Below are positions 47,821-50,800 of a stretch of 64,000 nt of DNA, one piece after another. Each line of letters starts with the position of its first letter. Position 1 is the stretch's first letter. Position numbers: made by a program. Origin of the DNA: Escherichia coli (GTDB taxonomy: Bacteria; Pseudomonadota; Gammaproteobacteria; Enterobacterales; Enterobacteriaceae); NCBI RefSeq assembly GCF_024298765.1, contig NZ_CP101210.1; one strand, written 5' to 3'.

Positions 47821-50800
47821 GTTTAAAAGACATCGGCGTCAAGCGGATGTCTGGCTGAAAGGCCTGAAGAATTTGGCGCGTTAACAAAGCGGTTATGTAG
47901 CGGATTGCAAATCCGTCTAGTCCGGTTCGACTCCGGAACGCGCCTCCACTTTCTTCCCGAGCCCGGATGGTGGAATCGGTAGACACAAGGGATTTAAAAT
48001 CCCTCGGCGTTCGCGCTGTGCGGGTTCAAGTCCCGCTCCGGGTACCATGGGAAAGATAAGAATAAAATCAAAGCAATAAGCAGTGTCGTGAAACCACCTT
48101 CGGGTGGTTTTTTTGTATTTGTATTTTGAGCAATGGCGGTAGAGTGGCGGTGGTGTGGCGATATGCAGAAACAATAATGGTGGTGCACGTGCTGTTTAAG
48201 CTCTAAGGATGAAGCAGAATTCTCCTGCAGCTCCTCCGTATTTCGCATAGTGAACCAAGACTTCGGTTAAACAAAATTTTTCTGGGATTTTTCCACTCGA
48301 CTTCATTTTTCCTCCAGTCATCCACCAAAGGTACCTGCGCTAATCTATCTTTTTTAATCTGACAACATCCTGAGAAAAGGCAAATTCGTCAGATTTACTG
48401 TTTTTTCTGCTGCTTCGAATGCCGATGTCTGCAGTACTGATAAGAGCTCTATCTCTTTGATATAGATCTTTTTTTTGATGAATTGCTCGACATATTATCG
48501 TTATGACACCTTCTTGTTAAAGGTGTTGTACTCCACATCTCGATTTTATGATGTGGGTTATGATTGGTTAGTAATAGAGTGTATCGGTATGCGATGTGGT
48601 TTATTAATGGCAATATGCTTTTGTTTGGTATCTTTTAGTGGGTATGCAGCAACAGGAAAGTCTGATGTTCAGATCAAGAAAGAAATAATTAAAGAATCCA
48701 TTGAATCATATCCAGGCAATTGTGCGTGTCCTTATAATCATGCAAGGAATGGTAGTAGGTGTGGTGGACGCAGTGCATATAGCCGTACTGGAGGGTATGA
48801 TGTGGTATGTTATGAGAGTGATGTTACTGATGAAATGATCCGGCAATGGAAGCAGGAGAATGCTGATTAATTACTTTTGACTGGTTTGTTTTGCGAGCAT
48901 TATGTGTGTTGTTAACGGTACCCTAGCTAAGTGAGAGTTCCAAAATAAAACCCGCAGTTTTTACGCTGCGGGTTTTATTGTTTCTGTCGATGGGATAGGG
49001 TGCCACTTCGGCCAGCCTTGGCAACCGATTGACGGGGGATTACTCCCCCGTCGCGGTTTCCTTACTGCTTACACTGTAAGAACGCCGCAAACTCCGCTCC
49101 CCAGAAGCTCATCCGTATTTCACACAGCGAACCGTGCAGCATCCAGATGATGAGGATTACCGTCACGCAGAACGTGATGGCCGTAAGCGATTTTTGCGAC
49201 ATAGCGCTTGCTCCTTTTTAGGGGAGGCGCTAACCTATCACTTGCTAAGGTTAGATGGTTAGGGCCTCGGTTAAACAGAGATGTTTTCCGGGGCCTTTCC
49301 ACATCTGGCCTTCGGGCATACCCTCCGACCATCAGCCGAAAGGCACCCGCGCGTAATCTATCGTTTTTTTGTTGCTTCGGCAATTCTGCTCGTTAATTCT
49401 GAGGTAAAGGCAAACTCATCTGATTGTTTCCCCTGTGTGACGTTGGCAGTTCATGCCACGGGATACCTTCTGAAGATCGAACGCCTGAGGTGTGTTTCGA
49501 TGTGAATTTATGGAAAGCTTCCAGTGTTGAGAAGCATACGCCGCATTCCAGGTTGTTACACTGGTAATACTTTTGTCGGACGGTGTTTGAATCATTTTCC
49601 GGACGACTTGTGCGGATACGGGCAGATGCGCCACAAAGCGGACAACGGAACATAGCAACCTCCCTTTAGGTGGTGCTATTCTAAACTTCATCAATGCAGA
49701 TTCCAACTCCTTCCCACTTTAAGCGAAGGATGGTGATAAAGTCAGAATATGTTAGATGAAGTCTAAACGGGCGATAAGTTTTCCAATATTTGAATAACAA
49801 CGTGGCAGGATTTTTGTTTATCAATTATCTTACACTTTTAAGTGTAATAAATTTGTTAGTGATGACAATATTGTGAGAGGAGATTATCAATTGAAGATGG
49901 CAAAAAATAACAATGATAAAATGCGGGCAAAGTATAGGCCGTTCATAAATATATGGGAACATCTTCCTTCTGAGTTCAATGAACTCATCAAGACGTTAAT
50001 GGTGCTGATACGGCAAGGGGAAAATGTGGGAGCTCAGCAAAGGGAGCTTGATTCCATCGAAAACTTCAAACACCTGTTAAGTGGATGGAAGCGGGCGCAA
50101 AGGATCATAGCTGATGAACTCATTATCAGGCTTTCTCAAATCAAGGATCTGGAGTTAGAAAAGAATTGTGCCCATTCAAAAAAGGACTATGAAACAAAGA
50201 AGAAGTGTATACGCAATATTGAAAGGACTAGACTAGAAATTAGGATTTTACGTAGGTGCATTGATTCAATTGTATGGGCGATATTCCGCAATGAACACTC
50301 GTCTATAAGACGGTTACCTATAAATAGAAATACTGACAATCTGACAATATTTAATATACATGATTCAATGGTGGTAGCAGATGAAATCAATGCTGATCCG
50401 ATGGCTATAGCTGTTATCACTGATATTACTACGTTTGTACATACTGGTGATTTACTTGCGTTAATACCTCAGCAAGGCATAACTTTAATTGAAATAAAAA
50501 GTGGTAAGAAAAATATAGAGTTTTCAAAGGCGGCTATGTTCTCAGTGCAAAGTAAATGTCTTCATTTTGATGAGATTTATAGAAAAGACCTTGATAAAAA
50601 TGACTTGAAACACTATGACAGAGCTAAGCGTCAACTTAAAAGAGCTCAAAATGTGATAGATGTCATTGAAACTGGTAAGGGATTTGATAACTTTTTTCAG
50701 TCTCAAGTAACAATTCATGACAGAGATTTTTGTCCCGATTTTTATACAGATAAGATTATTGAGCTTTGGTATGAGATATATAACGGTAAAACTTGGGCGA

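What the first reader, a model, noticed from the sequence alone, without database searches (positions are those of the whole stretch)
47961..49653. Prophage junction lies about 1.3 kb beyond leuZ, with the ogr end rather than an integrase facing the tRNA
The tRNA operon and its terminator look intact, then comes AT-rich non-backbone DNA, and ogr is the first recognisable phage gene. No integrase is in the window, so int is presumably at the far end. I did not find a copy of the leuZ 3' end downstream, so the exact attachment core and whether the tRNA gene itself is the target remain open.
Basis: inference. Interest (0 to 1): 0.35.

Follow-up and report, generated by a model that had tools for sequence, protein, structure and literature searches.

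The report
Prophage inserted in leuZ tRNA gene
A P2-family prophage has inserted into the leuZ tRNA gene itself in the well-known HP1-phage manner, so the junction lies at leuZ and not 1.3 kb beyond it; this is ordinary, already-described biology.

Summary
glyW-cysT-leuZ is followed by AT-rich DNA absent from empty sites, then hok and ogr of a P2-family (P88-like, Xuanwuvirus) prophage. No integrase and no second leuZ 3' copy lie in the window.

In near-identical genomes (99.6-99.8%) the prophage spans about 37 kb, from leuZ to yecA. It is bracketed by an exact 124-bp direct repeat, of which window 47993-48116 is one copy. The repeat starts at the first base of the leuZ anticodon loop (TTTAAAA) and ends after the operon terminator. 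Phage-specific DNA therefore begins at 48117, 69 bp after leuZ.

The leuZ 3' half and the terminator seen in the window are probably the phage-supplied copies. The host copies sit beside int, next to yecA.

The far-end integrase is 58% identical to Haemophilus phage HP1 integrase. HP1's own attP has the same layout: int, TGGCG arm repeats, a tRNA-Leu(UAA) 3' part starting TTTAAAATCCCTC, then more TGGCG repeats. Having ogr face the tRNA follows from this polarity.

The 0.8 kb between the terminator and hok is phage DNA: arm repeats, a hok remnant and a phage-family ORF. About 10% of complete E. coli genomes carry this junction, and O157 Sakai Sp13 is recorded at leuZ. This is already known and of low interest.

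The parts
47745..47820 (+). glyW, tRNA-Gly(GCC); host backbone
   Evidence: ARAGORN; Rfam tRNA 69.1 bits
47875..47948 (+). cysT, tRNA-Cys(GCA); host backbone
   Evidence: ARAGORN; Rfam
47961..48047 (+). leuZ, tRNA-Leu(UAA). It is a hybrid gene: 47961-47992 is host-only, and 47993-48047 lies inside the att repeat and is probably the phage-supplied copy.
   Evidence: ARAGORN. Junction alignments. In O157 the SNPs sit only in the leuZ-side copy.
47993..48116 (+). 124-bp att identity block (leuZ-side copy). It runs from the anticodon loop, through the rest of leuZ and 69 bp downstream, to the end of the terminator T-run.
   Evidence: 100% identical to L001 37915-38038 beside int and yecA in O111:H8 8E (BLAST; alignments). 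The same holds in strain ECN24. Empty-site homology ends at 48116.
47993..47999 (+). Anticodon loop TTTAAAA, flanked by the inverted stem halves AGGGA and TCCCT. Inferred to be the 7-bp overlap where strands are exchanged.
   Evidence: The identity block begins exactly here. HP1 attP begins its tRNA-Leu part with the same TTTAAAATCCCTC. The O157 SNPs put the crossover left of 48056. The exact exchange points are inferred, not shown.
48090..48116 (+). Terminator hairpin and T-run of the tRNA operon; inside the att block, so probably the phage-borne copy
   Evidence: Terminator scan; position inside the repeat
48133..48165 (+). Three direct RTGGCG repeats spaced 11 bp apart (48133, 48144, 48155). 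Putative arm-type Int-binding sites of the ogr-proximal attP arm.
   Evidence: Motif scans. The same motif with the same 11-bp spacing flanks the HP1 attP core. The 186-type arm consensus tgccGCCActt in PMC3448106 is its reverse complement.
48203..48420 (-). Degenerate second hok-like locus. It keeps the GSLCEIR motif and the upstream regulatory similarity but lacks the N-terminal membrane part.
   Evidence: Repeat families D1, D3 and D4 match the intact hok locus; translation; alignment
48589..48870 (+). 93-aa ORF with a signal-peptide-like N-terminus, member of phage family phrog_27544 (function unknown)
   Evidence: PHROGs E=1.6e-59. Annotated as a hypothetical protein in RefSeq relatives. 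No Pfam family above cut-off.
48944..48979 (.). Perfect 14-bp-arm hairpin, readable as a terminator on both strands, between the 93-aa ORF and hok. Similarity to phage P88 and its relatives starts here, at about 48942-48991.
   Evidence: Inverted repeat I2; terminator scan; phage matches begin at query 895-947
49062..49202 (-). hok/gef-family toxin gene (46 aa)
   Evidence: Pfam PF01848, 30.1 bits against a cut-off of 22; RefSeq annotation 'Hok/Gef family protein'
49214..49348 (-). hok upstream regulatory region with a sok-like match
   Evidence: Rfam RF01794 (sok), 42.7 bits, below the gathering score of 59; inconclusive
49393..49653 (-). ogr, the late-gene activator zinc-finger protein (86 aa)
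   Evidence: Pfam PF04606, E=4.8e-14; RefSeq annotation
49897..51360 (+). AT-rich cargo gene (487 aa) between ogr and gpD; absent from phage P88
   Evidence: ORF list. No Pfam, PADLOC or PHROG hit. 57 homologue clusters, all hypothetical. In P88, gpD lies directly after the ogr region with no intervening cargo gene.
51491..52732 (-). gpD tail/late-control protein. From here the prophage structural genes run past the window end at 64000.
   Evidence: Pfam PF05954, E=1.9e-17. Colinear with the annotated prophage of strain 8E.

Best explanation
A P88-like (Xuanwuvirus, Peduoviridae) temperate phage with an HP1-type integration module has integrated into leuZ by tyrosine-integrase site-specific recombination.

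Its attP lies just past the 3' end of int. It carries a 124-bp copy of host sequence running from the leuZ anticodon loop to the end of the operon terminator, with TGGCG arm-type Int sites on both sides.

Recombination at the anticodon stem-loop joined two pieces. One junction is the host 5' part of leuZ fused to the phage copy of the 3' part and terminator; this is the junction in the window, and phage-only DNA starts at 48117. The other junction places the original host 3' part and terminator beside int and yecA, about 37 kb away and outside the window.

Because int and the tRNA fragment point the same way in attP, the end opposite int (arm sites, hok remnant, small ORF, hok, ogr) necessarily faces the rebuilt tRNA gene.

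Shown: the repeat, its exact limits, the empty site, the arm repeats, the integrase homology, and the identical HP1 attP layout. Inferred: strand exchange within the 7-bp anticodon loop, and that the window's own genome has the same far end as its close relatives.
For: 1. Empty site. K-12 J53 has leuZ followed directly by yecA. Its sequence equals the window's left flank plus the block plus the int-side right flank of strain 8E.

2. Repeat. Window 47993-48116 equals L001 37915-38038: 124/124 identical, about 36.9 kb apart in 8E. The same int-side junction is present in ECN24 and in O157.

3. Population break-points. Matches from thousands of genomes stop at 48116 on the leuZ side. On the int side they start at L001 37915. 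642 of 5,426 genomes carry the leuZ-side junction and 522 carry the int-side junction.

4. O157 SNPs. In O157 the leuZ-side copy carries two SNPs (window-equivalent 48056 and 48114), while its int-side copy equals K-12. So the leuZ-side block is phage-derived and the crossover lies left of 48056.

5. Integrase. It is 58% identical to HP1 Int over the full length (E=2e-139) and matches PDB 1aih at E=4.6e-75.

6. HP1 attP has the same order: int stop, two TGGCG repeats, TTTAAAATCCCTC with the tRNA-Leu 3' part, further host-like sequence, then three TGGCG repeats. Motif offsets are -111, -100, +193, +204 and +259 in HP1, against -102, -73, +141, +152 and +163 here.

7. Literature.
- HP1 integrates into a tRNA-Leu gene, and 186-type prophages have long common cores that keep the tRNA intact (PMC3448106).
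- Sakai prophage Sp13 sits at leuZ (PMC8190617).

8. The tract 48117-48940 has phage content: phrog_27544 at E=1.6e-59 and a hok remnant.
Against: - The second att copy and int are not in the window. They were read in relatives that are 99.6-99.8% identical over the shared part, and the window's exact genome was not found among RefSeq complete genomes.
- No free-phage or excised circular attP sequence was found. 'Escherichia phage 520873' proved to be a prophage excerpt that includes yecA.
- The two O157 SNPs could have arisen after integration.
- Phage P88 and its relatives share DNA only from about 48942 onward. The 0.8-kb att-proximal segment therefore belongs to a different mosaic module from the structural genes.
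Confidence: 0.93

Rival explanations
1. The prophage ends near ogr (about 49.4-49.65 kb). The AT-rich 48.1-49.0 kb tract is separate non-phage island DNA, and leuZ and its terminator are untouched host sequence.
For: The tract has lower GC than both the backbone and the phage structural genes. P88-like phages in the phage collection share only the hok-ogr part, from about 48942 on.
Against: The tract lies inside the pair of 124-bp repeats and is absent from empty sites. It begins with HP1-type arm repeats directly abutting the core. It encodes a phage-family ORF and a hok remnant. No att copy exists at about 48.9-49.7 kb.
Confidence: 0.02
2. Composite or tandem origin. 48117-48940 is the scar of an earlier leuZ-integrating element. 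The present P88-like prophage later joined it by homologous recombination through shared hok/terminator sequence, so the unit between the repeats is a chimera and perhaps no longer a single excisable phage.
For: The mosaic break lies at about 48942-48991, at a strong hairpin. A degenerate second hok locus lies 0.9 kb from the intact one. Scars consisting only of the first ~270 bp of the phage end exist in other strains. More genomes carry the leuZ-side junction (642) than the int-side junction (522) or the whole 47700-49700 stretch (323).
Against: Only one pair of att copies is present, with no internal att. The int module and the 48117 arm belong together, as in HP1. The same whole arrangement recurs in 323 genomes. 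Mosaic module exchange is normal for P2-family phages (PMC3448106) and does not move the junction.
Confidence: 0.05

Closest known systems
Haemophilus phage HP1 integration system (Int/attP, target tRNA-Leu)
   Same: The integrase is 58% identical over its full length. In both, attP lies immediately past the int stop codon. Both carry the 3' part of a tRNA-Leu(UAA) gene beginning with the identical TTTAAAATCCCTC at the anticodon loop. TGGCG arm repeats with 11-bp spacing lie on both sides. The polarity is the same, so int ends up away from the rebuilt tRNA.
   Different: The host and the downstream content of the identity block differ. HP1 carries a whole tRNA-Lys gene after the tRNA-Leu part; here it is 69 bp of leuZ downstream sequence with the operon terminator. 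The rest of the phage is P88-like, not Hpunavirus. Strand-exchange points were mapped experimentally for HP1 (Hauser and Scocca 1992, as cited) but not here.
Prophage Sp13 of E. coli O157:H7 Sakai and related STEC elements recorded at leuZ
   Same: They occupy the same site; Sp13 is listed at leuZ (PMC8190617), and leuZ is listed as a prophage or integrative-element site in O121 and O145. In an O157:H7 genome the same int protein (WP_001300279.1), the same att block and the same 48117-48906 segment are present.
   Different: The O157 copy is degraded. IS30 sits at window-equivalent ~48906 and has removed hok, ogr and most of gpD, and further IS elements are present. The window copy has these genes intact.
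Escherichia phage P88 / genus Xuanwuvirus (Peduoviridae)
   Same: The hok-ogr segment is 94% identical. The unusual divergent layout, with gpD on one strand and sheath-tube-tape-measure on the other followed by an invertase, is the same. 'Escherichia phage 520873' (ICTV Xuanwuvirus xv520873) is in fact a prophage excerpt from this same leuZ/yecA site, 97.3% identical in the int-att region.
   Different: P88 lacks the 48117-48940 att-proximal segment and the 487-aa cargo gene between ogr and gpD.
Phage 186 and other 186-type P2-like prophages in tRNA genes
   Same: Long common cores between the two junctions restore an intact tRNA gene; 50 and 110 nt are reported for two examples. Arm repeats have the consensus tgccGCCActt (PMC3448106).
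   Different: They target different tRNA genes (tRNA-Ile for 186, tRNA-Met and tRNA-Lys for others). The core here is 124 nt.
Other phages whose attP carries a leuZ-like fragment (lambdoid mEp390, Fostie, Pectobacterium ZF40, Yersinia vB_YenM_31.17)
   Same: Each carries a 119-132-bp match to the leuZ 3' part plus downstream sequence (77-88% identity). It is annotated as attP in mEp390.
   Different: These are unrelated or only distantly related phages whose fragments have diverged. Their integrases were not compared here.

Membership tests
HP1-type tRNA-targeting tyrosine-integrase module | Tyrosine integrase homologous to HP1 Int | tested here: met
   The Int of near-identical prophages (L001 36807-37808) is 58% identical to HP1 Int, E=2e-139. 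It matches PDB 1aih at E=4.6e-75 and phrog_1 integrase at E=1.4e-76. The gene lies outside the window.
HP1-type tRNA-targeting tyrosine-integrase module | attP next to the int 3' end, carrying the 3' part of tRNA-Leu(UAA) from the anticodon loop onward | tested here: met
   In both HP1 and this prophage the order is int stop, arm, then TTTAAAATCCCTC....
HP1-type tRNA-targeting tyrosine-integrase module | Direct repeat of the core at both prophage ends, with an empty site equal to left flank + core + right flank | tested here: met
   124-bp exact repeat. The empty site was reconstructed by alignment. Three independent lysogens were examined. The far copy was read in relatives, not in the window.
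HP1-type tRNA-targeting tyrosine-integrase module | Arm-type Int-binding repeats on both sides of the core | tested here: met
   TGGCG motifs lie at -102, -73, +141, +152 and +163 relative to the core, all in one orientation and 11 bp apart on the ogr side. HP1 has them at -111, -100, +193, +204 and +259. The window background is 0.55 per 100 bp on both strands. Binding itself was not tested.
HP1-type tRNA-targeting tyrosine-integrase module | Strand exchange across a 7-bp overlap in the anticodon loop | not testable with these tools
   Indirect evidence only. The identity block starts at the loop. The O157 SNPs place the crossover left of 48056. HP1-like integrases use the anticodon-loop sublocation.
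HP1-type tRNA-targeting tyrosine-integrase module | Excision directionality factor (Cox/Apl type) | not tested
   Only an annotation was seen: 'Cox-like excisionase and repressor' in the prophage excerpt NC_049344 from the same site.
Peduoviridae (P2 family), genus Xuanwuvirus (P88-like) | P2-family late genes (ogr, gpD, sheath, tube, tape measure, baseplate, capsid, terminase) in P88 order | tested here: met
   ogr and gpD by Pfam. The remaining genes come from the RefSeq annotation of the colinear 99.6%-identical prophage in strain 8E. The P88 layout is the same.
Peduoviridae (P2 family), genus Xuanwuvirus (P88-like) | Genome-wide nucleotide identity at genus level to P88 | not tested
   Only the hok-ogr segment was compared (94%). 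The same-site prophage excerpt 520873 is classified in Xuanwuvirus.
hok/sok type I toxin-antitoxin | Hok/Gef-family toxin ORF | tested here: met
   PF01848, 30.1 bits against a cut-off of 22
hok/sok type I toxin-antitoxin | Sok antisense RNA / hok mRNA leader | tested here: inconclusive
   RF01794, 42.7 bits, below the gathering score of 59

The most novel reading that the evidence does not exclude
The junction itself is ordinary. The most novel reading the evidence leaves open concerns cargo next to it. The AT-rich 487-aa gene between ogr and gpD (49897-51360) belongs to a conserved family with no annotated domain. Its predicted fold is confident (pLDDT 91.7) but has no informative solved-structure match. 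It has an invariant D...E-x-K pattern that I read as a PD-(D/E)xK nuclease motif. It could be an undescribed phage-borne anti-phage defence gene occupying a new cargo slot in P88-like phages.
Probability: 0.3. Interest if true: 0.45.

Novelty: already known. Interest (0 to 1): 0.1.

Why it matters
It matters little beyond correct annotation.

- The prophage boundary should be drawn at leuZ: the crossover lies in the anticodon loop and phage-only DNA starts at 48117, not at ogr.
- The leuZ 3' half and the terminator of the glyW-cysT-leuZ operon are then supplied by the phage in lysogens.
- The 0.8 kb after the terminator should be counted as phage DNA.
- The case is a clean example of an HP1-type integration module, with the same tRNA-Leu(UAA) anticodon-loop core, serving a P88-like E. 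coli phage. It shows modular exchange of integration cassettes in the P2 family.
- It explains why about 10% of complete E. coli genomes differ from K-12 immediately after the leuZ terminator.

Tried and rejected
1. Independent attP. I looked for a free-phage genome carrying this attP. The only full-length match, 'Escherichia phage 520873', is a prophage excerpt that still carries yecA at one end and is cut inside hok at the other. It is therefore not an independent attP. The vB_EcoM-...R records contain only the block.

2. Finer crossover mapping. I tried a more divergent leuZ-side junction (strain PRO_A-1028, 92.6% identity). That site holds only about 270 bp of the phage end followed by an IS1/Tn10 tet(B) island and no int-side phage junction, so it was uninformative.

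3. Suspected internal inversion. gpD and the sheath gene are divergent and only 25 bp apart, which suggested a rearrangement. I rejected this because phage P88 has the same layout.

4. Tandem-element idea. I rejected the strong form because there is no internal att copy. A mosaic origin of the modules remains possible.

5. Rfam scan of 47600-49900. It gave only the three tRNAs and a sub-threshold sok match.

7. HP1 recombination paper. Esposito et al. 2001 is not held in the library. The HP1 strand-exchange details therefore rest on a citation within another paper and on my own knowledge.
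Full report
**What is in the window.** ARAGORN finds tRNA-Gly(GCC) at 47745-47820, tRNA-Cys(GCA) at 47875-47948 and tRNA-Leu(UAA) at 47961-48047, confirmed by Rfam. The upstream gene is pgsA, so this is the E. coli glyW-cysT-leuZ operon (annotation of matching genomes). A terminator-like hairpin and T-run follow at 48090-48116. GC then drops to 0.38-0.40 across about 48.2-49.0 kb.

On the minus strand lie a Hok/Gef gene (49062-49202; PF01848 above cut-off) and an Ogr/Delta zinc-finger gene (49393-49653; PF04606, E=4.8e-14). gpD lies at 51491-52732. P2-family tail genes run to the end of the window, colinear with an annotated prophage in a near-identical genome. The window has no homologue of that prophage's integrase (tblastn) and only one copy of the leuZ 3' end.

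**Where the junction is.**

- Empty-site break-point. A megablast of 47700-49700 against 5,426 complete E. coli genomes shows backbone homology stopping at query position 417, which is window 48116, in genomes such as K-12, BL21 and HS. 323 genomes carry the whole stretch. A second query gave the same break-point, with 642 genomes carrying the leuZ-side junction.
- Empty site. In K-12 J53, leuZ is followed directly by yecA.
- Occupied site. In O111:H8 strain 8E (99.6-99.8% identical to the window over the shared 17 kb), a prophage of about 37 kb fills the interval between leuZ and yecA. A phage integrase is the last gene before yecA.
- The repeat. The DNA between that integrase and yecA contains an exact copy of window 47993-48116: 124/124 identical, L001 37915-38038.
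- Structure of the two junctions (alignments). The leuZ side reads host left flank, block, then phage DNA. The int side reads phage DNA, block, then host right flank. The empty site reads host left flank, block, host right flank.
- Other lysogens. The same int-side junction is present in strain ECN24, which has an intact gpD like the window, and in an O157:H7 genome. By BLAST, 522 genomes carry it, and all the others begin matching exactly at the first base of the block.

The block begins at the first base of the 7-nt anticodon loop (TTTAAAA, 47993-47999). It ends after the terminator T-run. The first phage-only base is therefore 48117, which is 69 bp after leuZ and not 1.3 kb beyond it.

**Which copy is which.** In O157:H7 the leuZ-side copy differs from K-12 at two positions (window-equivalent 48056 and 48114), while the int-side copy is identical to K-12. 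This is what is expected if the crossover lay to the left of 48056. The leuZ-side block would then come from attP and the int-side block would be the displaced host sequence. The 'intact' leuZ 3' half and operon terminator in the window are thus most probably phage-supplied. Two SNPs are modest evidence, because they could have arisen after integration.

**Mechanism and family.** The integrase (333 aa) matches the HP1 integrase crystal structure sequence at E=4.6e-75. It is 58% identical to HP1 Int over its full length.

Reading HP1's own annotated attP on the int strand gives this order:
1. int stop codon;
2. two TGGCG repeats 11 bp apart;
3. TTTAAAATCCCTC followed by the rest of a tRNA-Leu(UAA) gene;
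4. a whole tRNA-Lys gene;
5. three more TGGCG repeats.

The attP reconstructed here has the same order and polarity. Two TGGCG motifs lie on the int side (-102 and -73 relative to the core). The identical 13-nt start of the tRNA-Leu part follows. Three RTGGCG motifs at 11-bp spacing lie directly after the block, at window 48133, 48144 and 48155. Published arm-site repeats of 186-type P2-like phages (consensus tgccGCCActt) are the reverse complement of this motif (PMC3448106).

The literature fits this picture:
- HP1 integrates into a tRNA-Leu gene, and 186-type prophages have long common cores that keep the tRNA intact.
- HP1 attB is 18 bp, and the canonical overlap for such systems is 7 bp (which for the 18-bp figure cites Hauser and Scocca 1992).

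From these points I infer, without having shown it, that strands are exchanged across the anticodon loop, between the inverted stem halves AGGGA and TCCCT. Because int and the tRNA fragment are co-directional in attP, the rebuilt tRNA necessarily faces the end opposite int, which is the ogr end. That orientation is a property of the family and not an anomaly.

**The AT-rich tract is phage DNA.** It lies inside the repeats and is absent from the empty site. In order, it contains:
- the arm repeats (48133-48165);
- a degenerate second hok locus (48203-48420, minus strand), which retains GSLCEIR and upstream similarity to the intact hok locus but lacks the membrane segment;
- a 93-aa ORF (48589-48870) belonging to phage family phrog_27544 (E=1.6e-59);
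- a perfect hairpin at 48944-48979.

Phage P88 and other Xuanwuvirus genomes share DNA only from about 48942 onward (94% over hok-ogr). The att-proximal 0.8 kb therefore travels with the integration module, as expected for mosaic P2-family phages.

In O157:H7 the same segment is present up to about 48906, where IS30 has removed hok, ogr and most of gpD. This corresponds to Sakai prophage Sp13, recorded at leuZ (PMC8190617). leuZ is also listed as a prophage or integrative-element site in O121:H19 and O145:H28.

**Rivals.** A composite history is plausible as history: an older leuZ element's end may have been joined to a P88-like genome through shared hok/terminator sequence. The mosaic break, the duplicated hok and the existence of scars in other strains all point that way. 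It does not move the junction, however, because there is only one pair of att copies.

**Limits.**
- The far junction and int were read in relatives, not in the window's genome, which was not found as an exact match.
- No excised attP sequence was available. The one candidate phage record is a prophage excerpt.

**Verdict.** This is an ordinary, already-described kind of event: a P2-family prophage with an HP1-type integrase sitting in a tRNA-Leu gene, present in roughly a tenth of complete E. coli genomes. Interest is low.

Noticed in passing
[not shown]
   Followed up: partly
window 59007-62112 (invertase ORF 58369-58974, -): The 3.1-kb tail-fibre segment is inverted relative to the otherwise colinear prophage in O111:H8 strain 8E. 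It is bounded by 65-nt inverted repeats (59007-59071 and 62048-62112) and lies next to a serine invertase gene. This is a Gin/Cin-type host-range switch caught in opposite orientations in two genomes.
   Followed up: partly
window 48203-48420 (-): A degenerate second hok-like locus lies 0.9 kb from the intact hok. It retains GSLCEIR and upstream regulatory similarity but has lost the N-terminal membrane segment. This suggests past duplication or module exchange at the att-proximal end.
   Followed up: partly
window 52732-52758: The gpD start and the sheath gene start are divergent and only about 25 bp apart, unlike the co-directional FI-FII-E-T-U-D operon of P2. I suspected a rearrangement, but phage P88 and the 520873 record have the same layout, so it is native to Xuanwuvirus.
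   Followed up: yes
L003 21188-22731 (O157:H7 ECP19-798), window-equivalent ~48906: IS30 is inserted just after the 93-aa ORF and has deleted hok, ogr and most of gpD. Further IS3-family and other cargo changes lie inside the prophage. This is the degraded Sp13-type version of the same leuZ prophage.
   Followed up: partly
L007 36063-45704 (strain PRO_A-1028-6W-A_ESBL): At the same leuZ site only about 270 bp of the phage end survive. They are followed by IS1, a Tn10-derived tet(B) region, a PD-(D/E)XK nuclease and a restriction endonuclease before yecA. The phage scar has become a resistance and defence island.
   Followed up: no
L001 4555-5408 (O111:H8 8E) versus window 51491-52732: gpD is a full-length 413-aa ORF in the window. 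In strain 8E and most other near-identical prophages it is annotated as a shorter 'VgrG/Pvc8 family' CDS plus a fragment. This points to a frameshift polymorphism or annotation difference in gpD among these prophages.
   Followed up: no
hits H57-H65, same leuZ site in other strains: A variant of the prophage end (65% coverage, 94.6% identity) carries a gene annotated 'YecA family protein' under the match. Apparently it takes the place of the 487-aa cargo gene, so the ogr-gpD slot holds alternative cargo.
   Followed up: no
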